This document shows positions 22,529 through 32,556 of a stretch of DNA of 64,000 bases, piece by piece (within the stretch, counting starts at the first letter, position 1; every line of letters starts with the position of its first letter). The translations under genes and the position numbers were made by a program. The DNA is taken from contig JBJMNL010000240.1 in NCBI GenBank assembly GCA_045804285.1, forward strand, positions 5,821 through 69,820, read 5' to 3'. The DNA is from Gemmatimonadaceae bacterium (GTDB lineage Bacteria; Gemmatimonadota; Gemmatimonadetes; Gemmatimonadales; Gemmatimonadaceae). Below the pieces are notes generated by a model. The model had not been told where the DNA came from. It saw only the letters and a list, made by a program, of their open reading frames with translations, and did not search any database.

Positions 22529-23059
22529 TTAGCCGGACGGCTCGGGCATGTCAACGCGTTGCGCCCGCCTCTCGACGAAGAAGCGGCGCAGCAGCTCCCC
22601 GCACTCCTCGGCGAGCACGCCGCCGCGCACCGCCGGCCGGTGATTCAGCCGCGGGTGGCGGAGCAGGTCCCCGACCGAGCCGGCCATGCCCGCCTTGTCG
22701 TCCCACGCGCCGAACACCACGCGGTCGACGCGCGCCAGCACGAGCGCCCCGGCGCACATCGCGCACGGCTCGAGGGTGACGTAGAGCGTGCAGCCGGCGA
22801 GCCGCCAGGAGCCCAGCGCGGCGGCCGCCGCGCGCACCGCCAGGCACTCCGCGTGCGCGGTCGGGTCCTGATCGCGCACGGTGCGATTCGCCCCCGTGGC
22901 CAGGAGTCGGCCGTCGCGCACGATCACCGCGCCCACCGGCACGTCCCCACCCTCCACGGCGCTCGCCGCCCCGCGGAGCGCGACGCGCATCCACTCGGCG
23001 TCGGGCGCGCCACCGGCGCCGCCGGCGGCGCCGGTGGCGCTGACATCCAGCGTCGTCAT
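22529..23059 (-). CDS. tadA: tRNA-specific adenosine deaminase
   Basis: Deaminase zinc motifs HAECLAV and TLEPCAMCAGAL. It sits immediately upstream (same strand) of the tRNA genes. Confidence 0.9.
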   Translation of the reverse strand: MTTLDVSATGAAGGAGGAPDAEWMRVALRGAASAVEGGDVPVGAVIVRDGRLLATGANRTVRDQDPTAHAECLAVRAAAAALGSWRLAGCTLYVTLEPCAMCAGALVLARVDRVVFGAWDDKAGMAGSVGDLLRHPRLNHRPAVRGGVLAEECGELLRRFFVERRAQRVDMPEPSG

Positions 23060-25900: not shown

Positions 25901-26650
25901 TCACTCCCGCCCGCGCGCCGACGCGGCCGACCGGGTCCGGAGCGCCGAGTCCGCCTCCGCCGCCAGCTCCGCCACCACCGTCGCCGCCAGCGCCGAGAGG
26001 GTGCGGACGACGGCGTTCATCGTCGGCTCGGCCACGGCGCTCTCGCGGCGCACGGAGCCGGTCCACAGCACCGAGTCGTCGCCGGTGCGGAGGATGGCGG
26101 CGTCGACCCGCACCGCCGCCGAGAGCGCGCGGCCGCGGTTCACCTCCTCGAACTCCCGCACCGTGCCGCGCCACACGTAGCCCTGGCCGCGCAGCGAGGG
26201 CGGGTTGAAGATCGCCGCGCCCGTGGTGAGCGGGGCGCGCCGCAGCACGTCCTCGGTCAGGACGCCGAGCATCTGCCCGAGCGGGATCGCCCACTCGCGC
26301 GTCGGGTAGGCGCCGTACTCCGTCTCCCCCACCCGGTACACGATCGACGGCTCGCCGTACACCCCCGGCGTCTAGTATGGCGCGATGGCGAGCGCGCCGG
26401 CGGCGAGCGCCGGCGCGCTCGGCGGCCGCGGGTCGGCCGCGGCGGCCGAATCGGGGACCGAGAGGCGGTAGAGCTCGCGCGGCGGCAGCGTGCCGCGGAT
26501 GCAGCCGAGCGGCGCGACGGCCGCCGCGAGCAGGAGGGCGAGTCGCGCGGCGAGGCGCGCGGCGAGGCGCGCGGCGCGGCGCGGAGGGTGCGGGTGCCGG
26601 CTGGAGGCGTGGTCGGTCACTGTCGGTCGCGGGAGGTCGCCGAGGCGCAT
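25901..26650 (-). pseudogene. PqiC-like (ABC-transport auxiliary, DUF330-type) lipoprotein interrupted by an in-frame TAG
   Basis: ORFs 26372..26650 (lipobox ..AVAPLGC) and 25901..26362 are in the same frame. Read through, the sequence is ..LAIAPY * TPGVYGEPSIVYRV.., with TAG = CTA at 26372-26374 on the + strand. It is the last gene of the Mla-like operon. Confidence 0.6.
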
Positions 26651-26655
26651 CGCGG

Positions 26656-27564
26656 TCAGTCGCGGAGGGCGGGACCGGCGGTCTTCTTCGGGAGCACCCG
26701 TCGCTTCAGGACGCTCGTCGGGTCGCGCTCGAGGCGCGTCGAGAGGCGGGCGAGGTTGTCGGTGGCGACGGACAGGTTGCGCATCAGCTGGTCCACGCCA
26801 CCCCCCTGCTGCAGCGCGGTCCGCACGTCGGCGACGAGGGCGCGCGTGTCGCGCAGCGTCGCGAGCGCCTCGCGCTGGGTCGTCCCGACGGCGGGCCCGG
26901 CGGCCTTCACGCTCGAGTCGAGCGTCGCGATCAGTTGGTCGGTGTGCTCGAGGACGCGCGAGACCCTCACGCTCGCCGTGTCGAGGCGGGAGACCACGCG
27001 CTCGGTGTTGCGGCTGGTGTTGGCGACGAGCTGGTCGAAGCGCGTGAGCGTCCGGTCGAGACGCCCCCAGGGGTCGGTGGCGGCGAAGCGCTGCACCCCC
27101 GCGAAGAGGGTGTCGCTGTGCTCGAAGAAGCGCGCGAGCTGCGTCATCGCTTCCTGGAAGCTGAGGTTCTCGTCGGTCCGCAGCGTGCCGCCGACGGGGA
27201 GCGGCGCCGCGGTCGGCGAGCCGGGACGCAGGTTGAGGTAGGGCTCGCCGAGCAGGCCGACCTGCGTGATCGAGGCGCGGGTGTCGACGCGGACGGGGGC
27301 GCGGTGTCGCACCCGGAAGTGCACGACGAGGCGGGTCGGGTCGAGCGAGTCGAGGTCGATCGAGGTCACGGAGCCGACGGGAAGTCCGCCGTAGCGCACC
27401 TCGTCGCCGGGGTTGAGGCCGGCGACGCTGGCGAAGACGGCGCGGTACTCGCGCCCCCGCGCGAACAGCGCCGGGTTCCGCGCGTACGCGACGAGTGCGG
27501 CGAGGACGAGGATGGTGGCGCCGAGGAAGGCGGCGATACCGAGCCGCGGGTCGTCGTGCCTCAC
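26656..27564 (-). CDS. MlaD/MCE-domain protein
   Basis: N-terminal TM segment followed by an MCE domain (YRAVFASVAGLNPGDEVRYGGLPVGSVTSIDLD .. ASITQVGLLGEPYLNL) and a helical C-terminus. Confidence 0.85.
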   Translation of the reverse strand: MRHDDPRLGIAAFLGATILVLAALVAYARNPALFARGREYRAVFASVAGLNPGDEVRYGGLPVGSVTSIDLDSLDPTRLVVHFRVRHRAPVRVDTRASITQVGLLGEPYLNLRPGSPTAAPLPVGGTLRTDENLSFQEAMTQLARFFEHSDTLFAGVQRFAATDPWGRLDRTLTRFDQLVANTSRNTERVVSRLDTASVRVSRVLEHTDQLIATLDSSVKAAGPAVGTTQREALATLRDTRALVADVRTALQQGGGVDQLMRNLSVATDNLARLSTRLERDPTSVLKRRVLPKKTAGPALRD

Positions 27565-27636: not shown

Positions 27637-28404
27637 TCACGCCTGCTCGCGCACGCGCCGCTTGAGCAGCCGTCGGATGACCTCGTGGTCGCTCTCGAGC
27701 AGCGACTCGCGCGTCCCCTGCTCCACCACCGCGCCGTCGGCCATCACGCTGATCTGCTCGGCGCGGCCGTAGGCGTGCCGCACCTCGTGCGAGAAGATCA
27801 TCAGCGCGAAGCCCCCGGCGTCCTGCAGCCGTCCCACCGTCTCGTCGAGCTCGTGCGCCGAGTGGGAGTCGAGGCCGTGGGTCGGCTCGTCGAGGAGGAG
27901 CAGCGGCGGGCGCAGCGCCATCGCGCGGGCGAGGGCGACGCGCCGGCGCTCGAGCCGGCCGAGCTGGAGGGGGGTGATCGACTCGTCCACCACGAGGCCG
28001 GCCTCCACGAGCAGCTCGTGGGCGGCCTCGCGCGCCTCGGCGGCGGTCGCGTCGGTGTGCTCGAGCAGCGGCAGCTCGACGTTCTCGAGCACGCTCAGGC
28101 GCGTGAACAGCGCCGAGCCCTCGAACACGACGCCGATGCGCGTGCGCATCCGCCGCCACACGCGCTCCGGCTCTCCCGTCGCGCGGAAGACGTCGCCGTC
28201 GACCGTGATGGTCCCGCGCTCGGCCGGCTCGAGCCCGACGATGTGGCGCATCACCTGCGACTTGCCGCTGTGGATCGGGCCGAGCACGAGGTGCGTGCGG
28301 CCGCGCTCGACGGCGAGGTTCACGTCGCGGACGACGGGCGCCCCCGCGGGGCCCGTCAGGTCGCGCACGTCGAGCGCGGCGGGGCGGGACGGAGGCGCGG
28401 GCAC
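27637..28404 (-). CDS. MlaF-like ABC ATPase with degenerate Q-loop and signature motif
   Basis: Walker A GPIHSGKS, Walker B LLLLDEPT and H-loop FSHE are intact. The Q-loop reads VFEGSALF, and LQLGRLERRRVALARA replaces LSGG(Q/M)xxRVxxARA. Confidence 0.8.
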   Translation of the reverse strand: MPAPPSRPAALDVRDLTGPAGAPVVRDVNLAVERGRTHLVLGPIHSGKSQVMRHIVGLEPAERGTITVDGDVFRATGEPERVWRRMRTRIGVVFEGSALFTRLSVLENVELPLLEHTDATAAEAREAAHELLVEAGLVVDESITPLQLGRLERRRVALARAMALRPPLLLLDEPTHGLDSHSAHELDETVGRLQDAGGFALMIFSHEVRHAYGRAEQISVMADGAVVEQGTRESLLESDHEVIRRLLKRRVREQA

Positions 28405-28407
28405 GCG

Positions 28408-29280
28408 TCAGACCACCAGGCCGGGAATGAAGTAGAACACGGCGTTGACGAGCGTGTCGGCGCCGAGCACGCCGATCATGCAGTAGACGACCGCGCGCGT
28501 GGCGGCGGCGCCGATCGAGGTCACGTGGCGCTCGACGCTCAGCCCCTCGTCGGCGGCGACGATGGCGATGATCAGGGCGAAGGCGACGGCCTTCCCGAGC
28601 CCGATCACGATGTCCCGCACGAGCAGCGCGCTCCCGAACTGGTCCATGAAGACGCCGGAGCTGAAGCCGAGGAACAGCGTGGAGCCGAGCCAGCCGCCGC
28701 CCATGATCATCGCGTCGCTCAGGATGGTGAGCGCGGGGAGGGCGATGAGCAGCGCGGCGAGCTTCGGCGCCACGAGATACTTCACCGGGTCGAGCCCCAT
28801 GGCGCGCAGCGCGTCGAGCTCGGCGTTCGCGGCCATCGAGGCGAGCTCGCCGGCGATCGCGGCGGCGCTCCGCGCCACGACGAGCAGCGCGGCGACGAGC
28901 GGTCCGAGCTCGCGCGCCGCGAACCAGCCGATCGTACGCGCGCTCATCGCCTCCGCGCCGTACTGCTTGAGCTGGTAGGCGACCTGGAACGTCGCGATGA
29001 GCCCGACGAGCAGCGACGCGCTCAGGATGAGCCGGAGGGCGCCGAGCCCGAGCCCCTCCATCTCGCGCTGCACGCCGGAGCTGACGCTGGCGCGACGGGA
29101 GAAGACGAACCAGGCCAGCCAGTACCCTGCACCCAGCGCGAGGCGGCCGCGTCCGATGAAGCGGCCGCCCCCCTCGCCGACGGCGGGGCGCGGGACGACG
29201 TCGGCGCTCGCCGCCGGGTAGCTCCCGGTGCTCGTCGGCACCCCGGAGCTGCCGCCGGGGAGCGACCGCGAGAGCCCCAT
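28408..29280 (-). CDS. MlaE-like ABC permease
   Basis: Start MGLSRSLP at 29280. Motifs typical of MlaE/YrbE read ARELGPLVAALLVVARSAAAIAGELASMAANAELDALRAMG. Confidence 0.85.
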   Translation of the reverse strand: MGLSRSLPGGSSGVPTSTGSYPAASADVVPRPAVGEGGGRFIGRGRLALGAGYWLAWFVFSRRASVSSGVQREMEGLGLGALRLILSASLLVGLIATFQVAYQLKQYGAEAMSARTIGWFAARELGPLVAALLVVARSAAAIAGELASMAANAELDALRAMGLDPVKYLVAPKLAALLIALPALTILSDAMIMGGGWLGSTLFLGFSSGVFMDQFGSALLVRDIVIGLGKAVAFALIIAIVAADEGLSVERHVTSIGAAATRAVVYCMIGVLGADTLVNAVFYFIPGLVV

Positions 29281-29369: not shown

Positions 29370-29744
29370 ATGCGACCACGACTGCGCCTGATTCATGCGA
29401 CGCTGGCTCTCGGTATCGGTGTGACGGCGTGCGGAGGGCACGAGATCGCGGACGGGGTGACCGACTCGACCTTCGTGGCGACGATGGCGGAGCTGCGCCG
29501 GGTGGACGCAAAGGTCGCGCTCGACAGCGCGGCGAAAGCGTCGCAGCGCGCCGCGGTGTTGCAAAGACGAGGCCTCACGGCGGCTCAGCTCGAACACGCG
29601 GCCGGCGCGCTCGCCGACGACCCGGAGCGCGCCGGCGTCCTGTTCGCGCGGATCGACTCGGTGACCGCGCGGCCCGACAGCGCCGATGCCGCGCCGGCCG
29701 ACCGGCGCCGGCCGGCCGGCGCGGCGAAGATCCCCGCGCCCTAG
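29370..29744 (+). CDS. Small hypothetical lipoprotein
   Basis: 124 aa with lipobox LGIGVTAC. It is divergent from the Mla-like operon and followed by a hairpin. Confidence 0.5.
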   Translation: MRPRLRLIHATLALGIGVTACGGHEIADGVTDSTFVATMAELRRVDAKVALDSAAKASQRAAVLQRRGLTAAQLEHAAGALADDPERAGVLFARIDSVTARPDSADAAPADRRRPAGAAKIPAP

Positions 29745-29899: not shown

Positions 29900-30367
29900 T
29901 CACTTCATGACGATCATCTTCTTCACGATCGCCTTGCCGTCGACCTCGAGGCGGTAGAGATAGATCCCCGACGCCACCTCGCGATCCGTGTTCCGGTACT
30001 TCCCGTTCCAATACGCCGTGTACTGCTTGCACGTCAGCATGACGTTCTCGAGCGGCTGCCCGCCGGCGACGTCTCCCGCCGAGCCCTGCAGCACCGGCAC
30101 CGCGACCAGCTGCGCGAGCAGGTTGTAGATCCGCAGGGTCACCCGGTATTGTCGCGCCGGGTCCGTGCACGTCGGCGTATCGCCGATCGTGAACGGGATG
30201 GTCGTCTCCGGGTTGAACGGGTTGGGGTAATTCTGGCCGAGGCCAAACCCGGCATTGCGTCCGCGAGACGGCGGAGACTGCGGTGTGGTCTGCTGAGCCG
30301 CCGCGGCACGTGGCATGAGCGCGCTGAGGACGAGCACTGTCGTGAGTGCTGCCCATCCGAGCTTCAT
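29900..30367 (-). CDS. Small secreted protein consisting essentially of a T9SS type-A / FlgD-Ig-like C-terminal domain
   Basis: Signal peptide ..MPRAAAAQ. Domain motifs read [15 protein letters not shown] .. [11 protein letters not shown] .. YWNGKYRN .. [12 protein letters not shown] .. KKMIVMK. Confidence 0.7.
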
Positions 30368-30511: not shown

Positions 30512-32386
30512 TTACGTGCCGCCGCCTGCCAGCTGTCGCGCGCCGGGCACGACGCGCCCCGCACCTCGCCGAGCGGTCACGCCGACGCGGTCGCAGTACT
30601 CGAGAAACGGGATGAGGTACTTTCTCGAAATCCCAAGCAGATCACGCAGTTCCGCCGGCGAATACTCGCGATCCTCAGCCGTGCCGGCGCGCAGCGCCGC
30701 GACCAGCTCCCCGACCGCGGCGGCCGCGTAAAAGCGCTCCGGCTCCACCTGGACGACCACGCCGTCGCGCTCCAGAAGGCGCAGGAGTGCCGGAACGGCA
30801 GGCCCCAGCTCGCCGAGCTCGCCGACGCTCGGCGGCTCCCGGCCGGCTGCCCGGAGCGCCTCGACGAGCGCCGCCCGGGCCGCTTCCTGCCCTGCCGTGA
30901 GTCGAGGGGTCCACCCACGCCGCCGGATCGCGCCTCCTTCGAGCTCGACCGCACCCCCCTGCACCGCCTGCCGGACCGCCTCTTCCACCAGCTCCGGCGC
31001 GGCGCCGAGCTGCGCGCGCACGGACTGCAGGGGTGCACCGGGCTCGAGCGGCGCCTGCTCGTGGTGCCGCTCCACGAGCGCCACGAGCCGGTCCCGCAGC
31101 GCGCCGAGCGCCGCCGAGTCGAACAGGCGCCCTCCGAGGAGCACCCCCCGCCCCTCCTCGACCGCGCTCGCCACGAGTCGCGAAGCGAACGCGGGGGGGA
31201 TCCCGAGCCGCACGGCCAGCCCGCCCCGCTCGACGCCGTGGCCGGCGGCCTCGGCGAGCAGCAGCGGGAGTCGCTCCTCGGCCGGTAGTCCGGGACGCGA
31301 CCAGGGGCGCGCCCGCCGATAGGGCGGGTGCGGATCGCTGACCACCCCCCCGCCGATCGTCGCCACCGGCGACGCGGAGCGGAGCACGAAACGGTCGCCT
31401 GCCCGTGCCACGACCGGCTCGTCGAGGACGACGCGCGCCGCCTTCCGCTCGCCCGGCTCGAGCGCGCCGCCGGCCGTCACCACCCGCGCGCCGACGTCGA
31501 GCGTCCCGAGGTGGAAGCGGACCCGGGTGCGCGGCCGGAGCGGCTGCAGCGCGCCGTCGAGGAGGGCGACGTCGGCGCGCAGGACGCGCGTCGGCTCCCA
31601 GCTGGGGTCGGCCACGAGCACCGCGCCGCGGGCCACCTCGTCGAGCTCGACGCCGGCCAGGGCGACGGCGGCCCGGCGCCCGGGCGAGGCGGCGTCGAGC
31701 GCGGCCCCGTGCGACTGCACGCCGCGCACGCGCGCCGAGCGGCCGGCCGGGAGGATACGGACGCTCGCGTCGCGCGCGAGGGTGCCGCTCCACACCGTGC
31801 CGGTGACGACGGTGCCCGTGCCGCGCACCGTGAAGGCGCGGTCCACGGGCATCCGGAAGAGATCGGCCGCGTCGCGCTCGGGGACGGCGCGCGCGGCGTC
31901 GGCGAGTGCCGTCCGGAGCGCATCGAGCCCCGCCCCGCTCACCACCGACGTCGGCACCACGGGCGCGTCGGCGAGCGGCGTTCCGGCGACGAGCGACCGC
32001 AGGTCCTCGGCGACGAGCTCCGCCCACTCGTCCTCGACCAGGTCGCGCTTCGTGAGCGCGATCACGCCGCCGCGCACGCCGAGGAGGTCGAGGATGGCGA
32101 CGTGCTCGCGCGTCTGCGGCATGACTCCCTCGTCCGCCGCCACGACGAGCAGAGCGAGATCGATCCCCGTCGCACCGGCGAGCATGGTGCGGACGAACGC
32201 CTCGTGCCCCGGCACGTCCACCACCCCCACGGTGCCGACCCCCTCGAGCTGGAGTGGGGCGAACCCGAGCTCGATCGTGATCCCCCGCTTCTTCTCCTCC
32301 GGCAGACGGTCGGTGTTCACCCCGGTCAGCGCGAGGATCAGCGACGTCTTGCCATGGTCGATGTGGCCGGCGGTGCCGAGAATCAT
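30512..32386 (-). CDS. selB: Selenocysteine-specific elongation factor
   Basis: Start [16 protein letters not shown] at 32386. GTPase motifs DVPGH and TKRD. The C-terminal winged-helix region reads [26 protein letters not shown]. The 52-aa upstream extension in the track is translation of a repeat element. Confidence 0.9.
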
Positions 32387-32457
32387 GGGGAATTCGGGGG
32401 AGCGGAAACGGGAGAGGCGGAATGAAGAGCGAAGGGCGGGAGGAGAGGAGGCTTGAA

Positions 32458-32556
32458 GGGCGGAATGAGGCATGAGGGATGAGGCCGGGACGCTCTTACT
32501 GGCCAGCGAGGCCTCCCGTGGCCTCCCGGCCTCATTCCCCATGCCTCATTCCGCCC
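32458..32556. repeat. GGAAYGA-family heptamer-arm palindromic element, copy 1
   Basis: Left arm 32458-32490 reads GGGC GGAATGA GGCATGA GGGATGA GGCCGGG A. The reverse complement of right arm 32524-32556 reads GGGC GGAATGA GGCATGG GGAATGA GGCCGGG A. The loop is 33 nt. Confidence 0.85.

What the first reader, a model, noticed from the sequence alone, without database searches (positions are those of the whole stretch)
25901..26650. In-frame amber codon inside the PqiC-like lipoprotein of the Mla/Mce-like operon
Seen directly. ORFs 26372..26650 and 25901..26362 share one frame and read ..LAIAPY-TAG-TPGVYGEPSIVYRVGETEYGAYPTREWA... This is a continuous DUF330/PqiC-type sequence with an N-terminal lipobox (LGC).

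Four explanations are possible:
- a recent nonsense mutation (pseudogene)
- an assembly or sequencing error
- a split protein restarting at the GTG 9 nt downstream
- stop-codon read-through

Re-initiation at that GTG would yield a soluble fragment lacking the lipid anchor.
Basis: seen in the sequence. Interest (0 to 1): 0.6.

Follow-up and report, generated by a model that had tools for sequence, protein, structure and literature searches.

The report
Private amber stop breaks lipoprotein gene
One base change (GAG to TAG) interrupts the outer-membrane lipoprotein gene of a lipid-transporter operon in this one Gemmatimonadaceae metagenome genome, while near-identical sister assemblies and all relatives have it intact, so it is an ordinary young nonsense variant (or a local assembly flaw), not a recoded stop.

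Summary
On the minus strand, one frame runs from ATG 26650 to TGA 25901 and is interrupted only by TAG 26374-26372. A GTG lies 9 nt downstream. Read through the stop, the 249-aa product is a PqiC-like lipoprotein (PF03886), and the Pfam match spans the stop. It is the last gene of an MlaE-MlaF-MCE-lipoprotein operon.

Two independent assemblies from sister samples are 99.6-99.8% identical over 7 kb. Both carry GAG (Glu) at this codon and encode an intact protein. All 8 orthologs in related genomes and all 28 aligned homologs are single ORFs with a sense codon there.

I found no sign of recoding:
- The genome has no tRNA(CUA) and no PylS.
- TAG ends about 29% of long coding ORFs.
- None of 47 same-frame TAG junctions has a Pfam domain crossing the stop.

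The genome's private differences from sister assemblies are 11 synonymous, 2 missense and this 1 nonsense in 28 kb. That pattern fits real strain divergence. The TAG sits 4 and 11 nt from two private synonymous changes, so it most likely belongs to a real haplotype.

My verdict is a young loss-of-function allele (about 0.6) or a local assembly or consensus error (about 0.27). Functional read-through or a working split protein is unlikely. Interest is low.

The parts
28408..29280 (-). MlaE-like ABC permease, first gene of the operon (290 aa as called on the sister contigs)
   Evidence: PF02405 MlaE is recorded for the identical gene on L010 and L011. Coordinates were transferred through the alignment.
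27637..28404 (-). MlaF-like ABC ATPase (255 aa)
   Evidence: PF00005, E 1.2e-22.
26656..27564 (-). Single-MCE-domain protein (302 aa) with a long C-terminal region after the MCE domain. It is the likely partner of the lipoprotein.
   Evidence: PF02470 MlaD, residues 37-115, E 1.6e-20.
26372..26650 (-). N-terminal piece of the PqiC-like lipoprotein gene: signal peptide, lipobox Cys50 (26503-26501), 42 mature residues, then the TAG
   Evidence: It matches residues 1-92 of the intact sister proteins P0002 and P0071 apart from a copy-number difference (P0002) or two substitutions (P0071) in the signal-peptide repeat region.
26372..26374 (-). In-frame amber codon TAG at codon 93. Sister assemblies have GAG (Glu).
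   Evidence: The column is variable among 28 homologs (E, V, R, Q, L, A, S, D, G, I) but always a sense codon.
26363..26378 (-). 16-nt patch holding three differences private to this genome: CCA for CCG (26378, synonymous), TAG for GAG (26374), GGG for GGC (26363, synonymous)
   Evidence: Three of 7 differences falling within 16 nt of 6980 has P about 4e-4 by simulation.
25901..26371 (-). C-terminal remainder of the lipoprotein gene. From GTG 26362 it gives the 153-aa product that the public annotation calls.
   Evidence: PF03886 at 32.5 bits on the 153-aa piece alone. The 153-aa product is on record from only one contig, the 91,447-base NCBI contig.
26537..26583 (-). 12-nt tandem repeat (3.9 copies) encoding (AARL)n in the signal-peptide n-region. 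Copy number and sequence differ between sister assemblies.
   Evidence: TRF. L010 lacks 24 nt and L011 has 4 substitutions here.

Best explanation
The TAG is a plain nonsense substitution (GAG, Glu93, to TAG; G to T on the coding strand). It is private to the strain or haplotype captured in this metagenome-assembled Gemmatimonadaceae genome. It truncates the only PqiC-like outer-membrane lipoprotein of the genome after 42 mature residues, inside the folded domain. This strain therefore makes a lipid-anchored stub and, at most, some cytoplasmic 153-aa fragment from the GTG 9 nt downstream. The MlaE-MlaF-MCE-lipoprotein transporter loses its outer-membrane component. The event is very recent, because nothing else in the gene or operon has decayed. 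Shown: the stop, its privacy to this genome, the intact state elsewhere, and the absence of recoding machinery. Inferred: that the allele exists in cells rather than only in the assembly, and that it abolishes function.
For: - **Sister assemblies are intact.** Two Logan assemblies from sister runs (L010, L011) are 99.6-99.8% identical over about 7 kb, carry GAG at the site and encode intact 241- and 249-aa proteins.
- **Relatives are intact.** Eight orthologs in related genomes are uninterrupted across this region, and 28 aligned homologs all have a sense codon between near-invariant Y92 and invariant P95-G96.
- **The private differences look like real divergence.** Over 28 kb covered by sister contigs, the 14 positions where this genome differs from all of them are 11 synonymous, 2 missense and 1 nonsense. 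That is purifying-selection-shaped divergence, not random error.
- **The stop is linked to real variants.** The two differences flanking the TAG (4 and 11 nt away) are both synonymous third-position changes, so the stop lies on what looks like a genuine haplotype.
- **Close SNP pairs occur naturally here.** Closely spaced synonymous pairs also occur in an independent sister contig (54910/54925 and 55385/55398).
- **The flanks rule out a distant donor.** They are identical for about 175 nt upstream and more than 1,100 nt downstream.
- **The gene looks dispensable.** Only 9 of 41 related genomes have an ortholog, and four other MCE loci exist in this genome.
- **The stop falls inside the fold.** In the AlphaFold model (pLDDT 83), residue 93 lies between strand 87-89 and strand 102-107.
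Against: - No reads could be inspected, so the allele is known only from one consensus sequence.
- The 153-aa product is on record from a single contig.
- A scan of JGI metagenome contigs found neither haplotype.
- Three differences within 16 nt is unusual (P about 4e-4). It could also mark a local error patch.
- All three changes go from preferred codons to rarer ones or to a stop.
Confidence: 0.6

Rival explanations
1. The TAG (alone or with its two neighbours) was introduced when the metagenome genome was assembled, binned or polished. Possible sources are a low-coverage patch, a minority-variant path kept by the assembler, or a sequence-specific read error. Under this reading the organism's gene is intact with GAG.
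For: - The TAG allele is seen only in this one assembly.
- Three independent Logan contigs have the intact gene.
- Three differences are clustered in 16 nt (P about 4e-4).
- The assembly is fragmented, with 385 contigs.
- The sister sequence has a 7-nt inverted repeat here (GCCGTAC...GTACGGC), seen by eye. From general knowledge, this kind of context is prone to sequence-specific Illumina errors.
Against: - The genome's other private differences are overwhelmingly synonymous (11 of 14), so its consensus is generally faithful.
- The two neighbours of the TAG are themselves synonymous third-position changes. Two random errors would both fall on third positions with a chance of about 0.11.
- De Bruijn assemblers need repeated k-mers, so three linked changes imply several concordant reads (inference).
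Confidence: 0.27
2. The gene works as a split gene. Ribosomes terminate at the TAG and restart at GTG 26362, 9 nt downstream. The 153-aa fragment, alone or with the 92-aa lipoprotein stub, carries out the function.
For: - A GTG lies 9 nt after the stop.
- Genes of this operon are closely spaced or overlap, and Shine-Dalgarno motifs are weak throughout. This suggests coupled translation is common here.
- The public annotation calls the 153-aa product.
Against: - The fragment has no signal peptide or lipobox, so it cannot reach the periplasm or outer membrane where PqiC-like proteins act (PMC13631591, PMC10897342).
- The break is inside the beta-sheet domain.
- No ortholog or homolog is split.
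- There is no Shine-Dalgarno motif at a useful spacing, only GGGG directly abutting the GTG.
Confidence: 0.05
3. The TAG is decoded, either by a suppressor tRNA, by pyrrolysine-type recoding or by programmed read-through, so that a full-length lipoprotein is made.
For: - The frame is perfectly preserved after the stop.
- The tRNA set found is incomplete (for example no tRNA-Phe) and the genome is about 96% complete, so a suppressor could be missing from the assembly.
- From general knowledge, near-cognate read-through of UAG at a sub-percent level happens in any bacterium.
Against: - ARAGORN finds no tRNA with anticodon CUA among 50 tRNAs.
- PylS is absent: 22 bits against a cut-off of 178.
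- TAG ends 893 of 3,119 long coding-like ORFs.
- None of 47 same-frame TAG junctions has a Pfam domain spanning the stop, and many are clearly two adjacent genes such as L1|L10 and sigma|anti-sigma.
- The TAG is not conserved even in 99.8%-identical sister sequences.
Confidence: 0.04

Closest known systems
Pseudomonas aeruginosa PA3211-PA3214 MCE transport system; the lipoprotein is PA3214 (PMC13631591)
   Same: It has the same four parts: an inner-membrane transmembrane component (PA3211), an ATPase (PA3212), an elongated single MCE protein of about 300 aa (PA3213 runs to at least residue 312; here 302 aa) and a PqiC-like outer-membrane lipoprotein. The family profile hits PDB entries 13hr/13hs (one sequence; 2 entries, 16 chains) and 13hq (8 chains), all named 'ABC-type transport auxiliary lipoprotein component domain-containing protein', at E 4e-5 and 1.5e-4. 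The 8-chains-per-entry count fits the octameric ring reported for PA3214, but I did not verify that these entries are PA3214.
   Different: Sequence similarity is distant. A single-sequence phmmer search finds nothing. Ring formation and binding of the MCE C-terminal peptide were not tested. Here the lipoprotein gene carries a premature stop.
E. coli PqiC (YmbA) of PqiABC, and Xanthomonas XCC0632 (DUF330; PDB 2IQI, 8Q2C/8Q2D, 6OSX)
   Same: Same Pfam family, PF03886. Same fold: Foldseek E 8.5e-13 with target TM-score 0.82 to 2IQI, and 0.77-0.83 to PqiC and 6OSX. It also has an N-terminal lipobox.
   Different: PqiC partners with PqiA and the three-MCE-domain PqiB, not with an MlaFE-type ABC transporter. 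Sequence identity is only 16-19%.
Brucella abortus Mpc chimeric Mla-Pqi system (PMC12436622) and sphingomonad LinKLMN (PMC5144681)
   Same: Both are MCE-type transport systems that include a lipoprotein. PMC5144681 lists LinM as a periplasmic protein and LinN as a lipoprotein of a putative ABC transporter. [quoted passage not shown]
   Different: The phyla differ (Alphaproteobacteria against Gemmatimonadota). Substrates are unknown here, and I made no direct sequence comparison with these proteins.
Ordinary segregating nonsense alleles and young pseudogenes in bacterial populations
   Same: A single base substitution creates a stop in an otherwise undecayed gene. It is present in one genotype and absent from genotypes 99.8-99.9% identical.
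   Different: Nothing distinguishes it, apart from its linkage to two synonymous changes within 16 nt.

Membership tests
PqiC-like / ABC_trans_aux (PF03886, DUF330) outer-membrane lipoprotein | Pfam PF03886 match above the gathering score | tested here: met
   40.3 bits against a cut-off of 26 on the read-through product, covering profile positions 6-161 of 161. The 153-aa piece alone scores 32.5 bits.
PqiC-like / ABC_trans_aux (PF03886, DUF330) outer-membrane lipoprotein | N-terminal signal peptide ending in a lipobox cysteine | tested here: met
   ..AAAVAPLGC at Cys50, after a predicted helix spanning residues 24-48. The cysteine is conserved in at least 90% of 28 homologs. No dedicated lipoprotein predictor was available.
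PqiC-like / ABC_trans_aux (PF03886, DUF330) outer-membrane lipoprotein | Mixed alpha/beta PqiC fold | tested here: met
   The AlphaFold model of the intact sister protein has pLDDT 83.3. Foldseek gives 2IQI at E 8.5e-13 with TM 0.82, and PqiC 8Q2D at TM 0.81-0.82.
PqiC-like / ABC_trans_aux (PF03886, DUF330) outer-membrane lipoprotein | Encoded next to an MCE-domain protein | tested here: met
   The MCE gene ends 5 nt upstream of the ATG. Sister contigs have the same gene order.
PqiC-like / ABC_trans_aux (PF03886, DUF330) outer-membrane lipoprotein | Octameric ring that binds the MCE protein's C-terminal peptide | not testable with these tools
   Known for PA3214 and PqiC (PMC13631591, PMC10897342). 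No complex modelling was done here.
PqiC-like / ABC_trans_aux (PF03886, DUF330) outer-membrane lipoprotein | Uninterrupted reading frame | tested here: not met
   TAG at codon 93 in this window. The frame is intact in sister contigs and all relatives.
MlaFE + MCE + PqiC-like four-component transporter (PA3211-14 / Mpc / LinKLMN type) | Permease, ATPase, single-MCE protein and lipoprotein genes in one co-oriented cluster | tested here: met
   PF02405, PF00005, PF02470 and PF03886 in this order on the minus strand, 29280 down to 25901.
Stop-codon recoding of TAG (suppressor tRNA or pyrrolysine) | A tRNA with anticodon CUA | tested here: not met
   ARAGORN over the whole 4.8-Mb assembly finds 50 tRNAs and none with CUA. 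tRNA-Sec(UCA) is present. The assembly is about 96% complete and the tRNA set is incomplete.
Stop-codon recoding of TAG (suppressor tRNA or pyrrolysine) | PylS (pyrrolysyl-tRNA synthetase) | tested here: not met
   The best TIGR02367 hit scores 22.2 bits against a cut-off of 178.
Stop-codon recoding of TAG (suppressor tRNA or pyrrolysine) | In-frame TAG recurring in other genes, with TAG depleted as a terminator | tested here: not met
   TAG ends 893 of 3,119 long coding-like ORFs. None of 47 same-frame TAG junctions has a Pfam domain across the stop. That scan only saw stops at least 200 codons into an ORF.
Stop-codon recoding of TAG (suppressor tRNA or pyrrolysine) | The stop conserved at the same site in relatives | tested here: not met
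   GAG in sequences 99.6-99.8% identical. All 36 other homologs examined have a sense codon.

The most novel reading that the evidence does not exclude
The TAG allele is a real, selectively maintained loss-of-function or low-expression variant of the outer-membrane component. One possibility is that basal UAG read-through tunes the lipoprotein to a trace level. Another is that loss of the lipoprotein is favoured in part of the soil population. The linked 3-change patch would then be the trace of one multi-nucleotide mutation or a micro-recombination event.
Probability: 0.04. Interest if true: 0.4.

Novelty: already known. Interest (0 to 1): 0.1.

Why it matters
It matters little beyond annotation. 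The locus should be labelled as one interrupted (pseudo)gene of a PqiC-like lipoprotein, not as a 153-aa 'hypothetical protein'. It should not be used as evidence for amber suppression or a variant genetic code in Gemmatimonadota. It documents that this phylum carries the MlaFE + MCE + PqiC-like four-gene transporter recently characterised in Pseudomonas and Brucella. If the allele is real, it is a natural knockout of the outer-membrane component. It is also a small example of how strain-level variants end up in metagenome-assembled genomes.

Tried and rejected
- **Metagenome scan.** A scan of JGI metagenome contigs with a degenerate 61-nt pattern covering both haplotypes found nothing.
- **Paralog or templated donor.** No second copy of the gene or of the mutated patch exists in the genome. 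tblastn gives one hit, and blastn-short gives only chance 13-19-mers. PF03886 occurs once. In the sister sequence GCCGTAC/GTACGGC form a perfect 7-nt inverted repeat, and the window's change weakens it. This argues against quasi-palindrome correction.
- **Import from a distant relative.** Rejected because the flanks are identical for 175 nt and more than 1,100 nt.
- **Genome-wide recoding.** Rejected.
- **TGA in the G010 ortholog.** It lies upstream of that gene's start, near the end of the preceding MCE gene (seen in frame). It is not an internal stop.
- **Failed look-ups.** A single-sequence PDB search gave no hit; the profile search was needed. One exact-protein look-up (window 22532-23059) was not on record.
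- **Earlier scan notes.** The notes on this genome held nothing about in-frame stops.

Full report
**Observation**

On the minus strand the sequence reads ATG(26650) ... GCG CCA TAC TAG(26374-26372) ACG CCG GGG GTG(26362) ... TGA(25903-25901). The ORF list gives 26372..26650 (92 aa) and 25901..26362 (153 aa) in one frame. Reading the TAG as a residue gives a 249-aa product. Its Pfam ABC_trans_aux (PF03886) match covers residues 72-230, profile positions 6-161 of 161, at 40.3 bits against a cut-off of 26. The match therefore crosses the stop.

**Context**

The gene is the last of four co-oriented genes:
- an MlaE-like permease (28408-29280; PF02405 on record for the identical sister gene);
- an MlaF-like ATPase (27637-28404);
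- a single-MCE protein of 302 aa (26656-27564);
- the lipoprotein.

ClpB follows downstream and SelB lies upstream. The window belongs to a 4.8-Mb, 385-contig, about 96% complete assembly. A same-genus homolog is labelled Gemmatimonadaceae.

**What the gene is**

- A profile of 28 homologs hits PDB entries named 'ABC-type transport auxiliary lipoprotein component' (13hr, 13hs, 13hq), XCC0632 (2IQI) and E. coli PqiC (8Q2C).
- An AlphaFold model of the intact sister protein has pLDDT 83.3.
- That model matches 2IQI (E 8.5e-13, TM 0.82), PqiC and 6OSX (TM 0.77-0.83).
- The four-gene layout is that of P. aeruginosa PA3211-PA3214. There the lipoprotein forms an octameric ring under the outer membrane and binds the C-terminal peptide of the MCE protein (PMC13631591). 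The layout also matches Brucella Mpc (PMC12436622) and sphingomonad LinKLMN (PMC5144681).
- It is the only PF03886 gene in the genome. Five MCE-domain genes exist.

**Is the stop shared?**

No. Nine of 41 genomes searched (this genome plus 8 of its 40 relatives) have a match, and the 8 orthologs are uninterrupted across this region. The single TGA flagged in G010 lies upstream of that gene's start. Sixty-eight database homologs were found. In an alignment of 28 of them, the column of codon 93 is variable (E, V, R, Q, L, A, S, D, G, I) but always a sense codon. It lies between near-invariant Y92 and invariant P95, G96 and Y98.

The closest evidence comes from two Logan assemblies of sister sequencing runs. 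L010 is from SRR17459139 and L011 from SRR17459152. They are 99.6% and 99.8% identical to the window over about 7 kb, and they encode intact 241- and 249-aa proteins with Glu at position 93. The codon there is GAG. The 153-aa product is on record from only one contig, the 91,447-base NCBI contig.

**Recoding?**

- ARAGORN finds 50 tRNAs and one tmRNA in the whole assembly. None has anticodon CUA. The set is incomplete, for example it lacks tRNA-Phe.
- PylS is absent: 22 bits against a cut-off of 178.
- Among 3,119 long ORFs with coding-like composition, 2,058 end in TGA, 893 in TAG and 168 in TAA.
- I tested against Pfam the 47 cases where a coding-like ORF continues in frame after a TAG. None has a domain crossing the TAG. 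Many are plainly two neighbouring genes, such as ribosomal L1|L10, sigma|anti-sigma, response regulator|kinase, FtsX|ABC and chorismate synthase|shikimate kinase.

TAG is an ordinary terminator here. The limit of this scan is that it only sees stops at least 200 codons into an ORF.

**Real allele or artefact?**

Twenty-four Logan contigs from the same series of runs cover 28,077 bases of the window. At 14 positions this genome differs from every covering contig. Of these, 11 are synonymous (all third-position changes), 2 are missense (both in SelB) and 1 is the nonsense change. Such a skew is what real divergence under purifying selection looks like. Random consensus errors would not produce it. 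The assembly therefore represents a genuinely distinct, very close genotype, about 0.05% apart.

Three of the seven differences in the 7-kb operon region fall within 16 nt:
- 26378, CCA for CCG (synonymous);
- 26374, TAG for GAG (nonsense);
- 26363, GGG for GGC (synonymous).

The chance of such clustering is about 4e-4. Both neighbours of the stop are synonymous. Close pairs of synonymous SNPs also occur in an independent sister contig (54910/54925 and 55385/55398). The patch therefore looks like a natural micro-haplotype. It could be one multi-nucleotide event or a very short exchange between close strains. The flanks are identical for 175 nt and more than 1,100 nt, which excludes a distant donor. 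No paralog or local template exists.

I therefore favour a real allele (about 0.6) over an assembly or consensus artefact (about 0.27). The clustering, the uniqueness of the allele and the change towards rarer codons keep the artefact explanation alive.

**Consequence if real (inferred)**

- Termination at codon 93 leaves a signal peptide plus 42 mature residues. In the model this is only the first two short strands of the domain; the stop falls between strand 87-89 and strand 102-107.
- Restart at the GTG is mechanistically possible. Genes here are closely spaced and Shine-Dalgarno motifs are weak generally.
- The restart product would lack the signal peptide and lipid anchor. It could not reach the outer membrane, where PqiC-like proteins act.
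- The transporter would lack its outer-membrane partner.
- Nothing else in the operon has decayed, so the event is recent.
- The patchy distribution of the gene among relatives (8 of 40 related genomes) suggests it is dispensable.

**Comparison and verdict**

The gene family and operon type are known. A single private nonsense codon is an ordinary event. There is no support for suppression, pyrrolysine or a conserved split gene. Interest is low. The practical outcome is an annotation correction: one interrupted PqiC-like lipoprotein gene rather than a 153-aa protein. It is also a caution against reading this TAG as recoding.

Noticed in passing
window 26537-26583 (minus-strand gene, signal-peptide n-region): A 12-nt tandem repeat (3.9 copies, encoding AARL units) is polymorphic between sister assemblies. 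L010 lacks 24 nt (two units). L011 has four substitutions in and just upstream of the repeat, at 26553, 26564, 26567 and 26589.
   Followed up: partly
window 54910/54925 and 55385/55398, against locus L019: Pairs of synonymous SNPs 13-15 nt apart distinguish one sister contig from the others. Micro-clustered polymorphism therefore seems to be a feature of this population, not only of the TAG patch.
   Followed up: partly
window 30512-32542 (-), and genome-wide: A SelB (selenocysteine elongation factor) gene lies just upstream of the operon, and ARAGORN finds a tRNA-Sec(UCA) elsewhere in the assembly. The organism therefore decodes some TGA codons as selenocysteine. This is unrelated to the TAG.
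   Followed up: no
genome contig C289, + strand, around 7838: After the TAG that ends a cytochrome-c-like ORF, a 62-codon in-frame ORF matches only the C-terminal end of DUF4262 (profile positions 89-126 of 127). This may be a gene remnant.
   Followed up: no
relatives G001-G040: The lipoprotein ortholog is present in only 8 of 40 related genomes of the same family or order, so it is an accessory gene in this lineage.
   Followed up: no
window 29370-29744 (+) and 29900-30367 (-): Two small genes sit between the operon and SelB. One is a 124-aa ORF on the opposite strand with no Pfam hit. The other is a 155-aa protein with only a faint T9SS C-terminal sorting-domain hit.
   Followed up: no
whole assembly: The tRNA set is incomplete: no tRNA-Phe, Gln(CUG) or Lys(UUU) was found. 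Absence of any tRNA in this assembly is therefore weak evidence on its own.
   Followed up: no
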